Of a stretch of 64,000 bases of DNA, positions 7,407 through 45,941 are shown piece after piece. The DNA comes from Escherchia phage Stokescottia. Position 1 is the first letter of the stretch. Every line of letters starts with the position of its first letter. The translations under genes were made by a program, and so were the position numbers. The notes beneath the pieces were generated by a model, which saw only the letters and a program-made list of their open reading frames with translations, did no database searches and was not told the DNA's origin. The stretch lies in the sequence record OR896820.1; one strand, 5' to 3'.

Positions 7407-8378
7407 TTAATCGTATACTCGCTCTACTATGCACGGGATTACACCACCAGCACGAATTACTCGAATCTGGCAACCGATCTCTAGATCAAGAGAGTTAATA
7501 TAATCAACGTTATTAAGAGTCGCTTTAACAATTGTAGCATCATCAATAATTACCGGTTCGAAATAACCAACTGGAGTTACTTTACCAGAAGCCCCTACCT
7601 GCCACTCAACTTTAGTAAGAGTTGTAATCTCGCCTTCTTCATCCTCTTTAATAGCGAATGCTCCACGAGGGAATTTATTAGTCCAGCCTTCTCGGAAGAA
7701 TTTGTTGTTGTCATTAATACGAACAACTTTACCGTCCGTCGGAATCCATTTAAAGAATGAACGCACATTAACAACTGTTAAGAAGTCTTCATTCTCTAGC
7801 CAAAGCATATCTTTTAAATATGCTTCTGTAATACCTACAGATTCAGCAGAACACTGGATACCATATGCAACGAAGATTAAACCACCTTCCCCGATACGTT
7901 GTACGAAATCATCGCTATCTTTGAGGTTAATAGCACCAGAGGCAAAGTTACGTTTATTCTCTACTTCTTTTGTAATTAGAACTTCACCAGTGATTTGAGT
8001 AGGTACTTTTTGGGAAATCTTTTTAGGGATGTTCAGCAATCTTACGTTGCTTGTGACATCATTCCCTAGAATACCGTTACCACGAGTTAGTGCTTGAACA
8101 AATTCTCCATTAATATATAACAGAGAAATCGCACAACCATCTAATTTATCAGTTTCTACCTGACCTAATGGGTTAAACGGAGGTTTATCTCCACGATTAT
8201 AATAAACTTTCTGTAAAGAATACATACGATACAGATGTGGAATATCACCCTTAGGCCCGATCTCTTCTTCTAACGGGAAGCGTTTTACCAGGCAATCATA
8301 CTCCTCATCAGAGATTAAAGACATGCCTTGATAATATGCTTCTTGACAGCGTTTAATAAATTCTTTTACATTAGTCAT
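7407..8378 (-). CDS. ligA: NAD-dependent DNA ligase, N-terminal adenylation/OB part
   Basis: 323 aa; active-site KxDG motif in TDKLDGCAISLLY; separate ORF from the Zn/BRCT half. Confidence 0.8.
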   Translation of the reverse strand: MTNVKEFIKRCQEAYYQGMSLISDEEYDCLVKRFPLEEEIGPKGDIPHLYRMYSLQKVYYNRGDKPPFNPLGQVETDKLDGCAISLLYINGEFVQALTRGNGILGNDVTSNVRLLNIPKKISQKVPTQITGEVLITKEVENKRNFASGAINLKDSDDFVQRIGEGGLIFVAYGIQCSAESVGITEAYLKDMLWLENEDFLTVVNVRSFFKWIPTDGKVVRINDNNKFFREGWTNKFPRGAFAIKEDEEGEITTLTKVEWQVGASGKVTPVGYFEPVIIDDATIVKATLNNVDYINSLDLEIGCQIRVIRAGGVIPCIVERVYD

Positions 8379-33000: not shown

Positions 33001-33224
33001 ATATTCATAAATTAGGGAACAGCGAGCCGATTACGCTGAGTGCAGAATCCCAACCGGAGCGCATTGAATAGAGTCGGTGGGTTAGTTGTAAAACTAGTAC
33101 ACAGGGGGCGGCAATTCCGGTTAGTGGCTAGAACGTGTAAAATGAGGCGTCTGAAACCTCTCCCCTAAACTCTTCTCTAATTTATAAATAGTGGGGTGTG
33201 GAAATCACTTATGTAGTAACACTG

Positions 33225-33295
33225 CCGTCCTAGTATAATTGGTATTATCAAGCCGTAACTGGTGGAAGATGTAGGTTCGAATCCTACGGTCGGTA
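33225..33295 (+). ncRNA. degenerate tRNA-like element
   Basis: Canonical T-arm GTAGG TTCGAAT CCTAC but no canonical acceptor or anticodon stems. Confidence 0.25.
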
Positions 33296-37505: not shown

Positions 37506-37583
37506 GGTTCTCAAGCTCATATGGTATGAGCACCCGGCTCATAACCGGAAGGTACGTAGGTTCGAATCCTCGGGGAGCCACCA
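37506..37583 (+). tRNA. tRNA with CAT anticodon (Met or Ile2)
   Basis: Acceptor GGTTCTC/GGGAGCC, D-stem GCTC/GAGC, anticodon loop CTCATAA; T-stem imperfect. Confidence 0.55.
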
Positions 37584-38086: not shown

Positions 38087-38163
38087 GGGGGTGTAATCGA
38101 ATTGGCATAGGTACTGGACTTAAAATTCAGGTTTTGTGGGTTCGAATCCCACCACCACTACCA
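38087..38163 (+). tRNA. tRNA-Leu(TAA), atypical short variable loop
   Basis: Anticodon loop CTTAAAA, T-arm GTGGG TTCGAAT CCCAC, encoded CCA; one acceptor mismatch; 5-nt variable loop. Confidence 0.5.
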
Positions 38164-38338
38164 AATTAAGGAAATAAGATGTATAGACATCCACCTCCGC
38201 CAACACGTCGTTCTAGAGAAGTTATTCTCATGGAATTGACTAAAAACTTCAAGGCAACCCTTGAAGATAGAGATCTAGGCACGGATGAAGACATTGATTT
38301 TATTTGTAGACTATTAAAGATGAAACTGGAGAAACAAC

Positions 38339-38545
38339 ATGGCTAATCCTGAAATTACCGCACAACGTTTCATGCTTAAAGGTATGATTGCTGAGGCGGG
38401 TATAACTCAAGAGGTTGCAGATTTTCATAAGCAATTTCTTGATATTATAACTCTAGCTAAAGAGACTGGAGAAAAAGAGCACGGAGCAGCAATTATGGCT
38501 ATATCTCTTATTAGTCTAGACTTGGCTGAAGAATCTGGAGTTTAG
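38339..38545 (+). CDS. hypothetical protein
   Basis: 68-aa ORF. Confidence 0.35.
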   Translation: MANPEITAQRFMLKGMIAEAGITQEVADFHKQFLDIITLAKETGEKEHGAAIMAISLISLDLAEESGV

Positions 38546-38575
38546 CTCCTCCAAACAGAATTTTTAAAAATGTAC

Positions 38576-38605
38576 TTGCCTTTTGCTTTAAATTTCTGGT
38601 ATAAT
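38576..38605 (+). promoter_or_regulatory. early-type promoter
   Basis: TTGCCT, 18-nt spacer, TGgTATAAT, then TATAAATTGATGAAGGAG box. Confidence 0.55.
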
Positions 38606-38635
38606 AATTATATAAATTGATGAAGGAGTTAACTA

Positions 38636-38911
38636 ATGCAAAATCGTGTTATAGCTGCTGGTATTGAAAGTGCAATCTGTAAATCCTGGGAAGGCTGGGA
38701 AGGTGAGATTGAATGGCTTTATTTCTACGATGTAGAACTTCTGCCGGAAATTAAAGCTAAATGTATTGAAGCTGGCATGGCTCCAGATGCAAAAGCTGAT
38801 ATTGATATTTCAATGTCTGAACTTAAAGGTCGTGTAATCACTGTTAGTGATGAGGGCGAAGAAGTTTTTGAACTTCCGTTCTCCTTAACTGTCACTCCTA
38901 AGTTCGACTAA
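38636..38911 (+). CDS. hypothetical protein
   Basis: 91-aa ORF. Confidence 0.4.
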   Translation: MQNRVIAAGIESAICKSWEGWEGEIEWLYFYDVELLPEIKAKCIEAGMAPDAKADIDISMSELKGRVITVSDEGEEVFELPFSLTVTPKFD

Positions 38912-38947
38912 CTAATACAGCATTGGGCAAGTTCTTTAAAATTTGAC

Positions 38948-38976
38948 TTGCCCAATACTATAAAACTTGATATAAT
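38948..38976 (+). promoter_or_regulatory. early-type promoter overlapping a hairpin
   Basis: TTGCCC, 17-nt spacer, TGaTATAAT; -35 lies in the inverted repeat TTGGGCAAG...CTTGCCCAA. Confidence 0.45.
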
Positions 38977-39042
38977 ATTTATCTAATTTGGAAACATATT
39001 TAAAAGTGTTTAAATGAGAATTTTTTGAATACTTCTAAATAT

Positions 39043-39130
39043 GGGGAAATATTCTGTAAGTGGTAGCAGAGCTGACTGTAAATCAGTTGTCATTGCGACT
39101 CGGGTGGTTCGACTCCATCTTTCCCCACCA
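39043..39130 (+). tRNA. tRNA-Tyr(GTA)
   Basis: Acceptor GGGGAAA/TTTCCCC, anticodon loop CTGTAAA, long variable arm, encoded CCA. Confidence 0.7.
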
Positions 39131-39137
39131 ATTTAAT

Positions 39138-39212
39138 GCACCTATCGTCTAGCGGTTAGGACACCACTCTTTCACAGTGGGAACACGAGTTCGATCCTCG
39201 TTGGGTGTGCCA
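39138..39212 (+). tRNA. tRNA-Glu(TTC)
   Basis: Acceptor GCACCTA/TGGGTGT, anticodon loop CTTTCAC, T-arm ACGAG TTCGATC CTCGT, CCA. Confidence 0.7.
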
Positions 39213-39221
39213 ATTAATAAT

Positions 39222-39292
39222 TGGGGTACGCATAGGTTGCAAATGGGCCTCCAAAACCCATGAAAAGGTTTCGAATACCTTTACCCCTGCCA
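39222..39292 (+). tRNA. tRNA-Trp(CCA)-like
   Basis: Anticodon loop CTCCAAA, T-arm AAGGT TTCGAAT ACCTT, CCA; mismatches at 1-72 and in the D-stem. Confidence 0.45.
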
Positions 39293-39298
39293 AAATTT

Positions 39299-39373
39299 GC
39301 ACCTTTAGCTGAGATGGATTAGCGCTTGCCTGAAGAGCTTGAGAGGTTCGTTCGATACGAACAGGGTGCACCA
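39299..39373 (+). tRNA. tRNA-Phe(GAA)-like
   Basis: Acceptor GCACCTT/AGGGTGC, D-stem GCTG/TAGC, loop CTGAAGA; anticodon stem has two mismatches. Confidence 0.5.
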
Positions 39374-39390
39374 AATTGAAGGAGCTGCTG

Positions 39391-39663
39391 ATGCATCCTG
39401 AAAACTTCTTTATTTACTGCGCGGATAAGTCGCTGAAACGTAGAATTAACAAAGTCTATCATTATCGTGCTAGTCAACAGCCTTATGTATATGCTTTTGA
39501 CGGTGATCACATTCCCCTAGAACAATTATCTTGTGATTACATGATATTGAAGAACTTTGACGAGACGAAGATCTCAAGCGTTCATAATCGACAGAATCCA
39601 TTAACGTGGAAATATAAGAAGAAAAAGAAAGGCATCAAATTCTTAAAAAATGTAGTTGCTTAG
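39391..39663 (+). CDS. hypothetical protein
   Basis: 90-aa ORF starting at the first ATG after tRNA-Phe. Confidence 0.4.
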   Translation: MHPENFFIYCADKSLKRRINKVYHYRASQQPYVYAFDGDHIPLEQLSCDYMILKNFDETKISSVHNRQNPLTWKYKKKKKGIKFLKNVVA

Positions 39664-39684
39664 TTTCCAAAAGTTCTGTATAAT
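39656..39684 (+). promoter_or_regulatory. early-type promoter
   Basis: TTGCTT, 17-nt spacer, TGTATAAT, then CATAAATTGAACTGGAG box. Confidence 0.6.
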
Positions 39685-39713
39685 AATTACATAAATTGAA
39701 CTGGAGAAGCAAC

Positions 39714-39938
39714 ATGACAGAACAAGAATTGAATGAACGTAAGCTGGTAATGCTTCGCTTACTAAATATTTTCTCTGGTATGGACGGTGGAATTGACTTT
39801 GTTCTTCTACGTTCTTTCGTAGAAGAAGCCGAAGGCGAATCTATCACTAAAATCCTTAAACACATGGGATTACTTTTAGATGCTGCTAATGTGGCTACTG
39901 AATATAAACTAGAAGATCTACCGGAGCGTGTTAAATGA
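39714..39938 (+). CDS. hypothetical protein
   Basis: 74-aa ORF. Confidence 0.4.
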   Translation: MTEQELNERKLVMLRLLNIFSGMDGGIDFVLLRSFVEEAEGESITKILKHMGLLLDAANVATEYKLEDLPERVK

Positions 39939-40126
39939 AACGATTAGTTAGATTTAAGTGTTGTGGTTCTGAACATACTTTCACACATCTTCGTGAATTT
40001 AAAATGTGTGATTGTGGTAAATCAGGCTATGACTCAGGAGATGGGTTCTACACCCGTACTCTAGGGAACTTCAATGATCTAGAATTTGAAGATCTCGAAA
40101 AACAAGATAAATCGACCGTTGGCTGA
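39935..40126 (+). CDS. hypothetical zinc-ribbon-like protein
   Basis: 63 aa with CC...CDC Cys pairs. Confidence 0.35.
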   Translation: MKRLVRFKCCGSEHTFTHLREFKMCDCGKSGYDSGDGFYTRTLGNFNDLEFEDLEKQDKSTVG

Positions 40127-40188
40127 ATGGCTTAGGCGAAGGATTGCAAATCCTTTTTATGTGAGTTCAAATCTCATGCGGTCGTCCA
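40113..40188 (+). tRNA. tRNA-Cys(GCA)
   Basis: Acceptor CGACCGT/GCGGTCG, anticodon loop TTGCAAA, T-arm GTGAG TTCAAAT CTCAT, CCA; overlaps the end of the preceding ORF. Confidence 0.65.
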
Positions 40189-40340
40189 ATTTGCTGAAAG
40201 AATTGTTAAATCAATTCAGGCACGCGTAGGAACACTGTCTCCGTAATTGAAAGATGGGGCACGGTTTGGAGAGGTATGCCGCTACACGCTACGGTGCTAA
40301 CTCCGTCTAGGTGAAAATCCTAGTCAGCAATGTAAATTTA

Positions 40341-40423
40341 GGGTCGTTAGCCAAGCGGTTTGGCGGCGGATTGTTAATCCGTGTCGAAAGACAACGTAGG
40401 TTCGAATCCTACACGGCCCGCCA
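40341..40423 (+). tRNA. tRNA-Asn(GTT) with extended variable hairpin
   Basis: Acceptor GGGTCGT/ACGGCCC, D-stem GCCA/TGGC, loop TTGTTAA, 13-nt variable region GTCGAAAGACAAC, CCA. Confidence 0.6.
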
Positions 40424-40525
40424 AATTCTGTGTAGAGTTAAGTAAACCGGTAGCCAATCAGCTATCATTGCTGACATCGAATTCAGCCACAGATACCATT
40501 TTCATTAATAACTGAGGAAACAAGC

Positions 40526-40711
40526 ATGTCCAAGAATGTAATTGCACAGTTAGAAGTTCATCGTGATAGCACTATCAACAATATTGAAGTTGAGAAGAAA
40601 TACATCGAAGAACTTAAACATGATATACTAGTAAGTCTTAATCGTCTTAATGTACGAAAAGAGTTTCTTAAAGAACTTAATGCAGCTATTGAAAAACTCA
40701 AAGCTGAGTAA
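40526..40711 (+). CDS. hypothetical protein
   Basis: 61-aa ORF, probably coiled coil. Confidence 0.35.
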   Translation: MSKNVIAQLEVHRDSTINNIEVEKKYIEELKHDILVSLNRLNVRKEFLKELNAAIEKLKAE

Positions 40712-40720
40712 ATGAATTAT

Positions 40721-40797
40721 GCGACCGGGGCTGGCTTGGTAATGGTACTCCCCTGTCACGGGAGGGAATGTGGGTTCAAATCCCATCGGTCGCGCCA
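40721..40797 (+). tRNA. tRNA-Asp(GTC)
   Basis: Acceptor GCGACCG/CGGTCGC perfect, anticodon loop CTGTCAC, T-loop TTCAAAT, CCA. Confidence 0.7.
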
Positions 40798-40823
40798 AAC
40801 TAAACTAGCACGAGAAAAATGCT

Positions 40824-41171
40824 ATGATTAATGCTAAAGAAGAATTGTTACTTGCCCTAAAGAATACTAATTCTGAAGTTAAGTGTATTAAGATAGAATT
40901 CGGTTATTATGGGGACAAAGAAGTTTGGGTATTACCCGTAGGTTATACAGAAAAAGATATTGAAGATTTTCTAAATAATCTAGACTTTAAATATGATTCT
41001 GGTTTCGGTGGACAATTGCTTTATGGTAACGTATGGTTTACTGATGGAACTTGGTTAGAACGTGGTGAATATGATGGTTCTGAATGGTGGGAGTATAAGA
41101 CTACACCAGCAATCCCTGAGGAATGCCGAACAATTAATGGTGAGGTAGATAATACTTTACGGTTAAACTAA
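40824..41171 (+). CDS. hypothetical protein
   Basis: 115-aa ORF. Confidence 0.4.
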   Translation: MINAKEELLLALKNTNSEVKCIKIEFGYYGDKEVWVLPVGYTEKDIEDFLNNLDFKYDSGFGGQLLYGNVWFTDGTWLERGEYDGSEWWEYKTTPAIPEECRTINGEVDNTLRLN

Positions 41172-41563
41172 TAAAATTTCAGTGCAGAACACGGAGCTAG
41201 CAATTCGGAAGTGCTGACTCATGATAAGCTGCCTATGTACTTGCGAAGCGGTCGTGTCCAAGACTCGGACTCTTGCACTGAAAACAATCAAACATTCTAG
41301 CGTGGTTGATGGGGAAACCAGCTTGGCGAGGGCAGAAGCTCGTTCGATTCGAGTGAAAGAATGGTTCTCGTAAGTCCGCACAAGTGATAACAGGTTCGAG
41401 TCCTGTCTAGAATGACACTATAAAGTTTACTTATTATGTAGGTTCCGGTAGATCGGCGGGTCTATTCTGGCATTTAAGAGAGGTCTCGCAAACTTCTTTG
41501 TCAGCCGTGGGGTTGGTAGCCTCCAGGCGGCCTACACAATAAGTAAATTTATTAAAAATTCAT

Positions 41564-41592
41564 TTGCTATTCTGCTTAATTCTCTGTATAAT
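41564..41592 (+). promoter_or_regulatory. early-type promoter
   Basis: TTGCTA, 17-nt spacer, TGTATAAT. Confidence 0.6.
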
Positions 41593-41624
41593 ATATTTTA
41601 TAAAGTGAAGAGAAGGAAAGCAAA

Positions 41625-41783
41625 ATGAAACACAAGATAGCTCAAGTTTTTATGGCATTATGGTGTATGCCAATAGCTGTAACAGCTTTTAATCTAGATA
41701 CTTTTACTATAGAAGAAAAATATATCGGATTAGTTAGCGGCTTTAGTATACTTGGCTTATCTTTGTTGTGGTTGAAGAAATAA
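41625..41783 (+). CDS. hypothetical small membrane peptide
   Basis: 52-aa hydrophobic ORF right after promoter and SD; below track cut-off. Confidence 0.3.
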   Translation: MKHKIAQVFMALWCMPIAVTAFNLDTFTIEEKYIGLVSGFSILGLSLLWLKK

Positions 41784-41787
41784 TATT

Positions 41788-41865
41788 CTCCGTGTAGCTC
41801 AGTTTGGCCAGAGCGTTTCGTTTGGGGCGATAGGGTCGGGGGTTCAAATCCTCCCACGGAGACCA
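41788..41865 (+). tRNA. tRNA-Pro(TGG)
   Basis: Acceptor CTCCGTG/CACGGAG, D-stem GCTC/GAGC, loop TTTGGGG, CCA. Confidence 0.65.
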
Positions 41866-41871
41866 AACAAT

Positions 41872-41949
41872 TGCGGGTTAGATCTCTGGTAGAGATCGCT
41901 AGTCTCATAAGCTAGAAAGAGGTAGGTTCGATTCCTGCACCCGCTTCCA
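41872..41949 (+). tRNA. tRNA with CAT anticodon (Met or Ile2)
   Basis: Anticodon arm CTAGT CTCATAA GCTAG, T-arm GTAGG TTCGATT CCTGC, CCA; 1-72 mismatch. Confidence 0.55.
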
Positions 41950-42138
41950 TTTTAATAGGGGATTTCGAAATGAAAGTATTTCGATTAGTAGTAAGTGACA
42001 AACGTTTAGGTAAGAATACCTCAAAATCATTACTTGCTCATTATGGTAAAAATTGGGATGAAGTAATGGTAGAGTTTAATACTAATCACCCTTACTTGAA
42101 AGTTCACTCTATTAAAGAAGTATACAATGGTTACTAAT

Positions 42139-42217
42139 AGATCGCTAGCTCAATAGGTTTAGTAGCATCCGACTTTTAATCGGAAGGTTCTGGGTTCGAG
42201 TCCCAGGCGATCTACCA
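42139..42217 (+). tRNA. tRNA-Lys(TTT)
   Basis: Acceptor AGATCGC/GCGATCT, anticodon arm TCCGA CTTTTAA TCGGA, CCA. Confidence 0.7.
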
Positions 42218-42236
42218 ATTTCAAGAAAAAACGCAG

Positions 42237-42265
42237 TTGCTTGATGCTTAATTTCTTGTTATAAT
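42237..42265 (+). promoter_or_regulatory. early-type promoter with long RNA leader
   Basis: TTGCTT, 17-nt spacer, TGTTATAAT, then TATAAATTGATGAGGAG box; no ORF before tRNA-Ala. Confidence 0.6.
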
Positions 42266-42503
42266 ATTTATATAAATTGATGAGGAGAAATCCTCATCAT
42301 AGTTCACTAAGGTATTAGCTCGACCTAGGACTGGCTGCCAAAAAGCACGATCCCCATGATTCGGGAGAAGTTCTAGATTGGTCCACTAGATTCAGCGGCA
42401 ACTGAATAGTGTATTGGGTTTGCGAGATGACGCAGTTCCTTCCGCTCGAAGCGAAGGTGCTGTAGTTACGCCGAGCTAATAGCCTTAGTAAACTAAAGAA
42501 TTT

Positions 42504-42582
42504 GGGGAATGGGTCTGCATGGAGTGGACACCTCGCTTGCACCGAGGACATCAGAACGGTTCGATTCCGTTATTCTCCACCA
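42504..42582 (+). tRNA. tRNA-Ala(TGC)
   Basis: Acceptor GGGGAAT/ATTCTCC with G3-U70, anticodon arm CCTCG CTTGCAC CGAGG, CCA. Confidence 0.7.
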
Positions 42583-42587
42583 AATAC

Positions 42588-42664
42588 GCGTGATTGATGG
42601 AATTGGCATACATACCGTCCTTAGAAGTCGGGTTTTGAGGGTTCGAATCCCTTGTCACGCACCA
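42588..42664 (+). tRNA. tRNA-Leu(TAG), atypical short variable loop
   Basis: Acceptor GCGTGAT/GTCACGC, loop CTTAGAA, T-arm GAGGG TTCGAAT CCCTT, CCA; 5-nt variable loop. Confidence 0.5.
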
Positions 42665-42776
42665 AATTTGATGGTCAGAGTAAATTAAACCTACTATCTC
42701 GGTTGAGCTGTTTTAATGGGTTCGAATCCCAGCGAGGCGTAACTGCCTGGTGTGATAGAGGCATCATCTTATTATT

Positions 42777-42867
42777 GGAAGAGCAAATCGAATTGGCGAC
42801 GAAAACCGCTTGGAAAGTGGCTGACTGGTAAAACGGCTTGAGAGTTCAAATCTCTCCTCTTCCGCCA
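42777..42867 (+). tRNA. tRNA-Ser(GGA)
   Basis: Acceptor GGAAGAG/CTCTTCC, loop TTGGAAA, long variable arm, T-arm GAGAG TTCAAAT CTCTC, CCA. Confidence 0.65.
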
Positions 42868-43337: not shown

Positions 43338-43889
43338 ATTAACTATAAGGAAATCTTATGAGCAAAACAGTTACTGTAACAATGAAGGATGGTAAAAAAT
43401 TTAAAGCATGTCTTCATGAAACAGATAAGGGATGGATGGCTTATTTGCCACACCTAGATTCCACCAGGTACGGAATGACCCAACGTGAAGCTATTGTTGA
43501 TGCTTTAAATGAGGCTTCTGCTGGTTTATAAAAATTCTTGAAGTATGCCGGAATTGGTAGACGGGGCTGCCTAAAAGGTTTATAGAGAACATCCACTCTC
43601 TACAACATACCTCATAAAGCGGCTGAGATAAATGGTCTATCTCGTGAAGGTTCAAGTCCTTCTGCTTCTTGATACATCTATGGCTCAAAGTGTAACGGTG
43701 CTATTTGATGCTCTTAGTAAGACTTCCCCGACATGCGTTCGGGAGTAAGCTGCTAAGGCTAGAGTAGAAGAGTTTCTGAGAGCCGCCACAATTGAAAATT
43801 CGTACTCGTCTTGAGCTGCGTGCAATAGGAGATAACTTGATTAGTATTCTAGAACATGCTAATTGAGGAAGGTTTCGCTAACCCTGCGA

Positions 43890-44368: not shown

Positions 44369-44376
44369 AACAATAA

Positions 44377-44452
44377 GCGGTTAAGCACACGGGTTGTGTC
44401 GCAGGCCTTCCAAGCCTCGCTGAGTAGGGTTCGATTCCCTCTAGCCGCTCCA
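44377..44452 (+). tRNA. tRNA-Gly(TCC)
   Basis: Acceptor GCGGTTA/TAGCCGC, anticodon loop CTTCCAA, T-loop TTCGATT, CCA. Confidence 0.6.
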
Positions 44453-44855: not shown

Positions 44856-44942
44856 GCTGGGTTGGCAGAATGGTTGAATGCACCTGATTTGTAATCAGGA
44901 GGAGTAATCCCATTGCAGGTTCGAATCCTGTGCCCAGCACCA
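44856..44942 (+). tRNA. type-II tRNA (long variable arm) with apparent TGT anticodon
   Basis: Acceptor GCTGGGT/GCCCAGC, 3-bp D-stem with 11-nt D-loop, anticodon arm CCTGA TTTGTAA TCAGG, 15-nt variable arm, CCA. Confidence 0.5.
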
Positions 44943-45865: not shown

Positions 45866-45941
45866 AGTTAGTTGGCAGAGTGGTTATGCACCTCCTTCAT
45901 ACGGAGCGACTACAGTGGTTCAAATCCACTACTAACTACCA
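45866..45941 (+). tRNA. tRNA with CAT anticodon (third copy)
   Basis: Acceptor AGTTAGT/ACTAACT, anticodon loop TTCATAC, T-arm AGTGG TTCAAAT CCACT, CCA. Confidence 0.55.

What the first reader, a model, noticed from the sequence alone, without database searches (positions are those of the whole stretch)
38087..42664. Two paralogous Leu-anticodon tRNAs with short (type-I) variable loops
The tRNAs at 38087-38163 (TAA) and 42588-42664 (TAG) share D-loop AATTGGCAT and a GTTTT variable loop of only 5 nt, whereas bacterial tRNA-Leu normally has a long variable arm. They may still be charged with Leu, or they may carry another identity and recode leucine codons.
Basis: partly seen in the sequence, partly recalled or inferred. 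Interest (0 to 1): 0.5.

Follow-up and report, generated by a model that had tools for sequence, protein, structure and literature searches.

The report
Phage leucine tRNAs lacking the long arm
Two real tRNA genes of a T5-like phage carry leucine anticodons but lack the long extra arm of bacterial leucine tRNAs; they keep every feature the host leucine-charging enzyme is known to need, so they are most likely ordinary leucine tRNAs of a short form that turns out to be common in phages.

Summary
The window is a T5-like phage (Tequintavirus, about 96% identical to phage phiP4). It carries two 77-nt tRNAs, UAA at 38087-38163 and UAG at 42588-42664. Each has a 5-nt variable loop GTTTT and the D loop AATTGGCAT.

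Recoding is not supported. Outside the missing arm, both align position for position with E. coli leuZ/leuW and with T5's own long-armed tRNALeu(UAG). Both keep the reported E. coli LeuRS determinants: A73, U8:A14, A15:U48, G18G19 in the Leu register, and A20a. With the anticodon masked and the variable region removed, both score best against a profile built only from long-armed Leu tRNAs (margins +10.5 and +12.5 bits).

A 15-member alignment from phages of enterobacteria, Vibrio and Aeromonas and from viral metagenome contigs shows 99% pairing. Eighteen of 20 pairs show compensatory change.

The short form is not rare. It makes up about half of Leu tRNAs in a sample of viral contigs. It is also a single-copy chromosomal gene in many Actinomycetota.

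The genes are already annotated as tRNA-Leu in hundreds of GenBank records. Leucylation itself is inferred, not shown. Interest is low to moderate.

The parts
38087..38163 (+). tRNALeu(UAA), type I, 77 nt with encoded CCA. It stands alone between short + strand ORFs of the phage tRNA region.
   Evidence: ARAGORN; Rfam RF00005 51.3 bits; segmentation against E. coli leuZ; best isotype profile is type II Leu, 45.7 bits against Lys 35.2.
42588..42664 (+). tRNALeu(UAG), type I, 77 nt with encoded CCA. It lies 5 nt downstream of tRNA-Ala(UGC) at 42504-42582.
   Evidence: ARAGORN; Rfam RF00005 47.5 bits with alignment; 100% identical copies are among the 130 phage records at >=99% identity; best isotype profile is type II Leu, 43.3 bits against Gly 30.8.
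38131..38135 (+). 5-nt variable loop GTTTT of the UAA tRNA. Its last base is U48, the partner of A15.
42632..42636 (+). 5-nt variable loop GTTTT of the UAG tRNA. Its last base is U48.
38099..38109 (+). G13, the D loop A14 A15 U16 U17 G18 G19 C20 A20a U21, and A22 of the UAA tRNA. The register matches E. coli tRNALeu: four bases before G18G19 and three after.
   Evidence: ATCG AATTGGCAT AGGT aligns with leuZ GTGG AATCGGTAG ACAC and leuW GCGA AATTGGTAG ACGC.
42600..42610 (+). G13, the same D loop, and A22 of the UAG tRNA.
38157..38157 (+). A70 of the UAA tRNA. This substitution (C70A) is private to this window and gives a G3.A70 mismatch.
   Evidence: phiP4 has C at this position. No record among 50,697 phage records reaches 99% identity, and 324 sit at 95-99%.
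38160..38160 (+). Discriminator A73 of the UAA tRNA. The UAG tRNA has A73 at 42661.
   Evidence: A73 is invariant in the 15-sequence family alignment.

Best explanation
Both genes encode functional leucine tRNAs of a phage-borne type I lineage. This lineage is a tRNALeu body from which the variable stem-loop has been lost.

Shown:
- Each folds into a standard cloverleaf with a 5-nt variable loop.
- The fold is maintained by compensatory changes across distant phages.
- Each keeps the Leu-type D arm: a 3-bp stem plus R13.A22 and the loop AAYYGGYAN.
- Each keeps A73, U8:A14, A15:U48, G18G19 and A20a.

Inferred:
- The host LeuRS reads neither the anticodon nor the long arm of E. coli tRNALeu, so it should leucylate them through the discriminator base and the D/T elbow.
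- The tRNAs then decode UUA/UUG (anticodon UAA) and at least CUA/CUG (anticodon UAG).
- These are the Leu codons this 39% G+C phage uses far more than E. coli does, so the tRNAs supplement the host's scarce leuZ/leuW isoacceptors late in infection.

The UAA anticodon loop (C U U-A-A A A) also keeps the A36-A37-A38 / pyrimidine-34 motif. That motif is required by the host enzymes that modify tRNALeu(UAA).

In my reading, loss of the arm is tolerated because LeuRS does not need it. Loss also removes the main handle for SerRS.
For: 1. Structure. ARAGORN and Rfam agree.

2. Leu body. The genes align position for position with E. coli leuZ/leuW and with T5's type II tRNALeu(UAG). The only gap is the variable arm.

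3. Determinants. The review PMC9976931 lists A73, the A15-U48 Levitt pair, G18G19, A20a and the D/T tertiary pairs for E. coli. It states that the long arm's sequence and folding do not correlate with leucylation, and that variants lacking the anticodon and variable arms stay active. All the listed bases are present. In the family alignment, A14, G18, G19 and A73 are invariant, and A15, A20a and U48 are at least 90% conserved.

4. Specificity. In the window, A14+A15+U48+A73 occurs only in the two Leu genes, the Lys gene and the class-II-shaped Thr gene. Only the two Leu genes combine it with the Leu-register D arm.

5. Isotype proxy. Profile HMMs were built with the anticodon masked and the variable region deleted. 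Both genes score best with the model trained only on type II Leu (45.7 and 43.3 bits; next best 35.2 and 30.8). For 17 of the other 19 window tRNAs, the best profile equals the isotype predicted from the anticodon.

6. Selection. In 15 homologues, 99% of cells are paired, 18 of 20 pairs show changes on both sides, and 0 of 500 shuffles reach the observed score. Slid controls give 36-48% pairing.

7. Demand. TTA is 24% and CTA is 20% of Leu codons in window ORFs of at least 120 aa. From my own knowledge, E. coli uses roughly 13% and 4%.

8. Precedent. One LeuRS charges both types of tRNALeu in Streptomyces (PMC6614811).
Against: - No aminoacylation or expression data exist for these type I genes.
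- PMC6614811 reports that E. coli LeuRS does not charge the Streptomyces type I tRNALeu(CAA). It calls EcLeuRS an enzyme that 'only charges type II', and cites work showing that the E. coli leucine-specific domain favours tRNAs with a large variable region. Charging may therefore be slower than for host tRNALeu.
- Each window gene has one stem mismatch: G3.A70 in UAA (private to this window) and U30.U40 in UAG (shared with relatives).
- The UAG tRNA has A37, whereas host leuW has G37.
- My isotype profiles are small, sequence-only, and labelled by anticodon.
Confidence: 0.8

Rival explanations
1. The short variable loop is an adaptive anti-defence trait rather than tolerated streamlining. The tRNAs would still be Leu tRNAs. 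Removing the arm would make them invisible to a host (or rival-phage) nuclease or modifier that recognises long-armed tRNAs, or would let a phage factor tell phage tRNALeu from host tRNALeu.
For: Phage T5 tRNAs are known to neutralise tRNA-cleaving defences through small structural differences. Examples are T5 tRNALys/Thr/Asn against PARIS AriB (PMC12409363) and T5 against retron PtuAB (cited). Eukaryotic SLFN11 selects type II tRNAs (reference list). In the same window the Thr(UGU) and Asn(GUU) tRNAs have gained variable arms while keeping the AriB site sequence UAAUC|A/C. So the variable region is being remodelled in this cluster in both directions.
Against: No bacterial defence that targets tRNALeu, or that recognises a variable arm, turned up in the papers I read. 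AriB targets Lys/Thr/Asn. HepS targets Thr/Ile/Ser. In RorSlfn5-expressing infected cells, tRNALys(UUU) fragments were the most abundant, with cleavage signatures also in tRNAVal(UAC), tRNAPhe(GAA) and tRNAIle(CAU). The OLD paper contains none of my search terms. Type I and type II alleles of tRNALeu(UAG) both circulate at the same locus in close relatives. Several phages combine a type II UAG gene with a type I UAA gene: Th1, phA11, Kenya-K37, HK6, SB9 and Lindwurm. This argues against a strong general advantage.
Confidence: 0.12
2. The tRNAs carry a non-leucine identity and recode, or make ambiguous, UUA/UUG or CUA/CUG codons. For the window's UAA gene specifically, the private G3.A70 mismatch with G2-C71, G4-C69 and A73 could give partial alanine acceptance.
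For: LeuRS, SerRS and AlaRS ignore the anticodon, so a Leu anticodon alone says nothing about identity. The review notes that tRNAAla mutants with a G-A mispair at 3-70 retain substantial activity. It lists A73, G2-C71, G3.U70, G4-C69 and G20 as the bacterial Ala set. The window's UAA gene has three of these plus the G.A mispair.
Against: All Leu determinants are present and conserved, and the best profile is Leu. There is no G3.U70. In the relative I inspected (phiP4) position 70 is C, giving G3-C70; none of the 324 relatives at 95-99% identity matches the window exactly. The UAG gene has G3-C70. G1.U72 is reported as an antideterminant for E. coli AlaRS, and G20 is absent. There is no long arm and no G73 for SerRS. 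Other synthetases read anticodon bases that do not fit. TTA and CTA together make up 44% of Leu codons in the phage's own ORFs. T5, a close relative, lacks the UAA gene and has a standard type II UAG gene. A changed meaning would therefore be proteome-wide damage rather than a code.
Confidence: 0.04
3. The genes are decaying or non-functional tRNA relics (pseudogenes) in a mosaic tRNA region rich in homing endonucleases.
For: Each has one stem mismatch. An identical copy of the UAG gene is annotated 'tRNA-OTHER' in MN994504. The region holds other aberrant tRNA-like pieces. The T5 annotation notes that several of its tRNAs cannot be converted into suppressors.
Against: There is strong covariation with 99% pairing across genera. 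The functional bases are invariant. 130 records are at least 99% identical to the UAG gene and 324 records are 95-99% identical to the UAA gene. CCA is encoded. Rfam scores sit well above the gathering score.
Confidence: 0.04

Closest known systems
E. coli tRNALeu(UAA) leuZ and tRNALeu(UAG) leuW
   Same: Same anticodons. Same D-arm design: 3-bp stem, R13.A22, loop AAYYGGYAN with G18G19 in the same register, and A20a. Also U8, A14, A15:U48 and A73. The UAA loop keeps U34-A35-A36-A37-A38.
   Different: The host genes are 87 and 85 nt with 15- and 13-nt variable arms; the phage genes have 5 nt. The stems are unrelated in sequence. The phage UAG gene has A37 where leuW has G37. BLAST against 5,426 E. 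coli genomes finds no match.
Phage T5 tRNALeu1(UAG), 85 nt, type II (NC_005859 T5t10)
   Same: Same genomic slot, directly after tRNA-Ala(UGC) and before tRNA-Ser(GGA). Same anticodon, same Leu D arm, A73 and A37. The T5 record states that its anticodon-replaced derivative works as an amber suppressor.
   Different: T5 keeps a 13-nt variable arm, and its stems differ. T5 has no UAA gene. The T5-type allele is found in about 54 phage records at >=90% identity, against 161 at >=95% for the window-type short allele.
Streptomyces coelicolor type I tRNALeu(CAA) (PMC6614811)
   Same: A bacterial-system tRNALeu with a 5-nt variable loop. It coexists with type II isoacceptors and is charged by the single LeuRS. 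The U8:A14 pair is an identity element.
   Different: In Streptomyces, A73 is not an identity element, and a special leucine-specific domain is needed. The same paper reports that E. coli LeuRS does not charge that tRNA. The phage genes keep the E. coli-type D arm and A73.
Animal mitochondrial tRNALeu(UUR)
   Same: Type I tRNALeu with anticodon UAA. Identity is set by A73 and A14, without a long arm.
   Different: It has a dedicated mitochondrial LeuRS, a fragile anticodon stem and a different elbow. There is no sequence relationship.
Short-loop tRNALeu(TAG) in mycobacterial tRNA gene clusters (PMC6582537)
   Same: A tRNALeu with a short variable loop. It is encoded in a mobile tRNA cluster that also carries an HNH endonuclease, alongside a normal long-armed chromosomal isoacceptor.
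   Different: The host is an actinobacterium. It is mentioned only in passing, and no functional data are given.
Engineered minimal E. coli tRNALeu lacking the variable and anticodon arms (Larkin et al. 2002, as summarised in PMC9976931)
   Same: Shows that E. coli LeuRS charges and edits tRNALeu without the long arm, provided A73 and the D/T tertiary pairs are intact.
   Different: These are laboratory constructs derived from host tRNALeu. I could not read the primary paper.

Membership tests
tRNA (Rfam RF00005) | Covariance-model score above the gathering score of 29 bits over the full model | tested here: met
   51.3 and 47.5 bits, model positions 1-71.
Type I (class I) tRNA | Variable region of 4-5 nt with no stem | tested here: met
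   GTTTT, 5 nt, in both genes. Total length is 77 nt including CCA.
Bacterial (E. coli-type) tRNALeu | Discriminator A73 | tested here: met
   A73 is present in both genes. It is invariant in 15 homologues and present in 100% of 92 type I and 56 type II Leu tRNAs surveyed.
Bacterial (E. coli-type) tRNALeu | U8:A14 and the A15:U48 trans-Levitt pair | tested here: met
   T8, A14, A15 and T48 are present in both genes. The pairing itself is inferred from the bases.
Bacterial (E. coli-type) tRNALeu | G18G19 placed four bases after position 13, with A20a; 3-bp D stem with R13.A22 | tested here: met
   ATCG/ATGG AATTGGCAT AGGT/ACAT has the same register as leuZ, leuW and T5 tRNALeu.
Bacterial (E. 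coli-type) tRNALeu | Long variable arm (type II architecture) | tested here: not met
   The loop is 5 nt. By the review, the arm is characteristic of tRNALeu but its sequence and folding do not correlate with E. coli leucylation. So this fails the structural class, not the identity set.
Bacterial (E. coli-type) tRNALeu | Body most similar to Leu tRNAs when the anticodon is ignored | tested here: met
   The profile built from 54 type II Leu tRNAs is the top model for both genes, with margins of +10.5 and +12.5 bits. This is a home-made proxy, not the tRNAscan-SE isotype models.
Bacterial (E. coli-type) tRNALeu | Leucylation by LeuRS and decoding of Leu codons | not testable with these tools
   Needs charging assays or tRNA sequencing of infected cells.
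tRNAAla identity | G3.U70 wobble pair (with A73, G2-C71, G4-C69, G20) | tested here: not met
   The UAA gene has G3.A70 in this window and G3-C70 in the relative inspected (phiP4). It also has G1.U72 and C20. The UAG gene has C2-G71 and G3-C70.
tRNASer identity | Long variable arm of the right size, G73, G2-C71 | tested here: not met
   No arm is present, and the discriminator is A73.

The most novel reading that the evidence does not exclude
Remodelling of the variable region is a general counter-defence strategy of phage tRNAs. In this one cluster the Leu tRNAs have lost the arm. The Thr(UGU) and Asn(GUU) tRNAs are homologues of two of the three host tRNAs cut by PARIS AriB next to the variable region. 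They have gained an arm while keeping the cleavage-site sequence. If so, arm loss or gain changes how host tRNA nucleases dock, or lets the phage tell its own tRNAs from host ones, without changing amino-acid identity. A narrower variant: the window's private G3.A70 makes its UAA tRNA partly alanine-accepting.
Probability: 0.1. Interest if true: 0.65.

Novelty: already known. Interest (0 to 1): 0.3.

Why it matters
For this window, the result settles an annotation question. These are leucine tRNAs, not recoding devices, and the phage uses the standard code.

More generally, a major review still states that tRNALeu carries a long arm everywhere except animal mitochondria. A 2019 paper presents Streptomyces as the first case of both types sharing one LeuRS. 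The quick surveys here point the other way:
- Short-armed tRNALeu makes up about half of the Leu tRNAs in a pattern-selected sample of viral contigs.
- Coliphages of at least three families carry them.
- Many Actinomycetota carry them as single-copy chromosomal genes.

T5-like and Felix O1-like phages therefore offer a natural test of how enterobacterial LeuRS handles type I substrates. They may also be a ready source of compact Leu tRNAs that ignore the anticodon, useful for suppressor engineering.

Tried and rejected
- Mis-parsed variable arm: rejected. The length of 77 nt, the ARAGORN drawing and the Rfam alignment all agree.
- BLAST of the UAG tRNA against 5,426 E. coli genomes found no match even at E <= 10. 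I therefore fetched leuW and leuZ by coordinates.
- My first genome contigs pattern had the wrong spacing and found nothing. I corrected it and checked it on the window.
- A strict D-arm regex caught only about half of Leu tRNAs of either type. The causes are ARAGORN register shifts and loop-length variation. I replaced it with per-position frequencies and profile HMMs.
- Alanine identity through G3.A70: considered and judged unlikely.
- I looked for a known defence nuclease acting on tRNALeu or on variable arms. The papers on bacterial Schlafen, PARIS AriB, P2 OLD and HepS describe none.
- Promoter-like sites around the genes are not above chance: 20 found against 23 expected. I make no transcription claim.
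- Papers I could not read: Scherberg & Weiss 1970, Larkin 2002 and Sargen & Helaine 2024.
- Literature searches found no paper describing short-armed tRNALeu in coliphages. The library lacks most of the 1980s T5 tRNA sequencing papers, so this absence is weak evidence.
- tRNAscan-SE isotype models were not available.

Full report
**What is there**

The window is a T5-like phage. Its tRNA region (37-46 kb) is about 96% identical to Escherichia phage phiP4 (Tequintavirus, Demerecviridae). It matches more than 1,200 phage records.

ARAGORN finds 21 tRNAs between 33.8 and 45.9 kb. They include tRNA-Leu(taa) at 38087-38163 and tRNA-Leu(tag) at 42588-42664. Rfam's tRNA model matches both end to end, at 51.3 and 47.5 bits against a gathering score of 29.

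Both are 77 nt including an encoded CCA. The cloverleaf has:
- a 7-bp acceptor stem;
- a 3-bp D stem plus G13.A22;
- the 9-nt D loop AATTGGCAT;
- a 5-bp anticodon stem;
- a 5-nt variable loop GTTTT;
- a standard T arm and A73.

A composite pattern of D loop, anticodon loop, spacing and T loop hits only these two sites and is expected 0.00 times by chance. The two genes share 54 of 77 bases. All loops are identical except for the third anticodon base, and the stems diverge.

**Are they leucine tRNAs?**

I fetched E. coli leuW and leuZ and T5's own tRNALeu(UAG) and segmented all five molecules. Outside the variable region they correspond position for position. The D arms are:
- GTGG AATCGGTAG ACAC (leuZ)
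- GCGA AATTGGTAG ACGC (leuW)
- CTGG AACTGGTAG ACAA (T5)
- ATCG AATTGGCAT AGGT (window UAA)
- ATGG AATTGGCAT ACAT (window UAG)

The variable region ends in U48 in every case, and the discriminator is always A.

The Giege and Eriani review lists the E. coli leucine determinants as A73, the A15-U48 Levitt pair, G18G19, A20a and the D/T tertiary pairs. It states that the long arm's sequence and folding do not correlate with leucylation. It also states that variants without the anticodon and variable arms remain active. Every listed base is present in both window genes.

The UAA anticodon loop keeps U34-A35 and A36-A37-A38. According to the same review, the host enzymes that modify tRNALeu(UAA) require this motif.

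**An isotype test**

tRNAscan-SE's isotype models were not available, so I built a proxy. I collected 655 parsed tRNAs from the fetched phage, viral-contig and E. coli loci. I masked the anticodon, deleted the variable region, and built one profile HMM per isotype. The Leu model was trained only on 54 long-armed Leu tRNAs, and window and phiP4 sequences were excluded.

The two window genes score best with that Leu model: 45.7 and 43.3 bits, against next-best scores of 35.2 (Lys) and 30.8 (Gly). For 17 of the other 19 window tRNAs, the top profile equals the isotype implied by the anticodon, which validates the proxy.

Across the survey, A73 is present in 100% of both short and long Leu tRNAs. 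A15 with U48 occurs in 74% of short and 98% of long Leu tRNAs, against 36% of other type I tRNAs.

**Are they under selection as tRNAs?**

I aligned 15 homologues with no gaps. They came from:
- the window and phiP4;
- Epseptimavirus S124;
- Seunavirus NINP13076;
- Vibrio phage X1 (Pogseptimavirus);
- Aeromonas phage AhSzw-1 (Shenzhenvirus);
- five viral metagenome contigs.

Between them they carry anticodons UAA, UAG, CAA and AAG.

On the type I cloverleaf, 99% of cells form standard pairs. Eighteen of 20 pairs show changes on both sides, and none of 500 shuffles reaches the observed values. Sliding the partners drops pairing to 36-48%.

The invariant positions include G1, U8, A14, G18, G19, U33, A35, A37 and A73 (the T loop is also largely invariant). 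A15, A20a, A22 and U48 are at least 90% conserved. These are working tRNAs, not relics.

**Demand**

In window ORFs of at least 120 aa, TTA is 24% and CTA is 20% of leucine codons. The window is 39% G+C. From my own knowledge, E. coli uses about 13% and 4%. The two anticodons therefore cover exactly the leucine codons the phage over-uses.

**How unusual is the short form?**

T5 itself has an 85-nt long-armed tRNALeu(UAG) in the same slot, between Ala(UGC) and Ser(GGA), and no UAA gene. The record counts are:
- about 54 phage records at 90% identity or better for the T5 long-armed allele;
- 161 records at 95% or better for the window-type short UAG allele;
- 324 records at 95-99% for the short UAA gene.

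Several phages combine a long UAG gene with a short UAA gene.

Felixounavirus HY02 carries three short Leu tRNAs (UAG, CAA, UAA). Seunavirus NINP13076 has one short and one long. Streptomyces phage PacManQ has two short ones.

I scanned IMG/VR for any UAA-anticodon tRNA with a GGTTCGAATCC T arm. In the first 120 contigs, tRNAs of 73-79 nt outnumber those of 81-89 nt, 68 to 45. Restricting to loci with at least 8 tRNAs still gives 21 short against 16 long Leu tRNAs.

The same short pattern in one genome per species returns mostly Actinomycetota. In 98 of 120 loci it is the only tRNA in the 8-kb locus fetched, which I read as a single-copy chromosomal gene rather than part of a tRNA cluster.

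Published precedents:
- the Streptomyces type I tRNALeu(CAA), charged by the single LeuRS;
- a passing remark on a short-loop tRNALeu(TAG) in a mycobacterial tRNA cluster.

I found no paper describing the short form in coliphages. The genes themselves are annotated as tRNA-Leu in hundreds of records, and once as 'tRNA-OTHER'.

**Cautions**

Leucylation is inferred, not shown. The Streptomyces paper reports that E. coli LeuRS does not charge the Streptomyces type I tRNALeu. It cites work showing that the E. coli leucine-specific domain favours a large variable region. The phage tRNAs may therefore be poorer substrates than leuZ/leuW.

They do differ from the actinobacterial type in keeping the E. 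coli-type D arm. I judge this to be the relevant difference, but that is inference.

The window's UAA gene has a private C70A change giving G3.A70. With G2-C71, G4-C69 and A73 this loosely resembles the alanine acceptor set, and G-A mispairs at 3-70 can work in tRNAAla. However, G1.U72 is an antideterminant for E. coli AlaRS and G20 is missing. I rate alanine acceptance as unlikely.

**Rivals**

An anti-defence reason for losing the arm cannot be excluded. It is attractive because T5 tRNAs are proven counter-defences. Against it, no known bacterial system targets tRNALeu or reads the variable arm, and long and short alleles coexist in close relatives.

Recoding and pseudogene readings each conflict with several independent results above.

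**Verdict**

The feature is real and was correctly described. The best explanation is a pair of ordinary leucine tRNAs of a short-armed lineage that is widespread in phages. The genes are already in the databases. The structural point is under-described rather than new.

Noticed in passing
window 44856-44942 (+): The 'tRNA-Thr(UGU)' is 87 nt and class-II shaped. It has a 3-bp D stem, a tRNASer-like D loop GAATGGTTGAA, a 15-nt variable arm AGGAGTAATCCCATT, and A73, with G1-C72 and C2-G71. My isotype profiles rank Ser (40.0) and Met (38.9) above Thr (34.5). It keeps the PARIS AriB cleavage-site sequence U36-A-A-U-C|A41. T5 itself has a normal 75-nt Thr tRNA. The long form occurs in about 100 T5-like records (99 at >=90% identity) and, at 78% identity, in Aeromonas phages Ah1 and AsFcp_2.
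   Followed up: partly
window 40341-40423 (+): tRNA-Asn(GUU) is 83 nt, with a 13-nt variable region GTC-GAAA-GAC-AAC (a 3-bp mini-arm with a GAAA loop). It keeps UAAUC|C at the AriB site. Seunavirus NINP13076 also has an 83-nt Asn tRNA with an enlarged variable region. T5's Asn tRNA is 78 nt.
   Followed up: partly
window 38157: A private C-to-A change at tRNA position 70 of the UAA tRNA creates G3.A70. No record among 50,697 phage records shares the exact sequence; the best matches are 98.7% identical. It could be a real variant or a sequencing error.
   Followed up: partly
window 42777-42867 (+): A 91-nt Ser(GGA)-like tRNA with C at position 8 and G73. ARAGORN misses it, and Rfam gives only 19.7 bits (to the tRNA-Sec model). 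It is the counterpart of T5 tRNASer2(GGA), which the T5 record says cannot be converted into an amber suppressor. It is annotated tRNA-Ser(GGA) in phiP4 and S124.
   Followed up: partly
window about 42695-42745 (+): A tRNA 3'-half-like remnant just after tRNALeu(UAG). The sequence GTTTTAATGGGTTCGAATCCCAG (a GTTTT loop plus a T arm) is closed by CTCG/CGAG, like a minihelix. T5 has an HNH endonuclease gene (hegC) between its Leu and Ser2 genes, and S124 has one between Ala and Leu.
   Followed up: no
window 37506-37580, 33224-33295, 44376-44449, 43539-43670 (+): Rfam reports tRNA-like matches that ARAGORN does not list: 40.3, 35.5, 30.9 (tRNA-Sec model) and 25 bits. At the first three positions, relatives annotate Ile2/Met(CAU), 'tRNA-OTHER/Undet' and Gly(UCC). 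The fourth lies where T5 annotates tRNA-like stable RNAs.
   Followed up: no
window 45866-45941 (+): The tRNA with anticodon CAU scores best with the Val profile (33.9 bits) rather than the Met profile (22.1). The T5 record notes that its counterpart cannot be made into a suppressor.
   Followed up: no
L002 (T5) 7625-7709 versus window 42588-42664: Long-armed and short-armed tRNALeu(UAG) genes are alternative alleles at one syntenic slot within Markadamsvirinae. The same holds for Thr and Asn (T5 short, window long). Homing-endonuclease genes sit at several of these junctions in relatives, which suggests cassette-like replacement of tRNA genes.
   Followed up: partly
L131-L250 (genome contigs): Type I tRNA(UAA) genes of 73-77 nt are widespread in Actinomycetota (Nonomuraea, Nocardia, Microbacterium, Leucobacter, Corynebacterium and others). 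They have A73 and a CCCAAYNGGCAGAGG D arm. In 98 of 120 loci the gene is the only tRNA in the 8-kb locus fetched. This is at odds with the review statement that tRNALeu has a long arm everywhere except animal mitochondria.
   Followed up: partly
window 42139-42217 (+): tRNA-Lys(UUU) carries U36-A-A-U-C|G41. That is a substitution at position 41 of the PARIS AriB site, different from T5's two substitutions (U39A, A41C).
   Followed up: no
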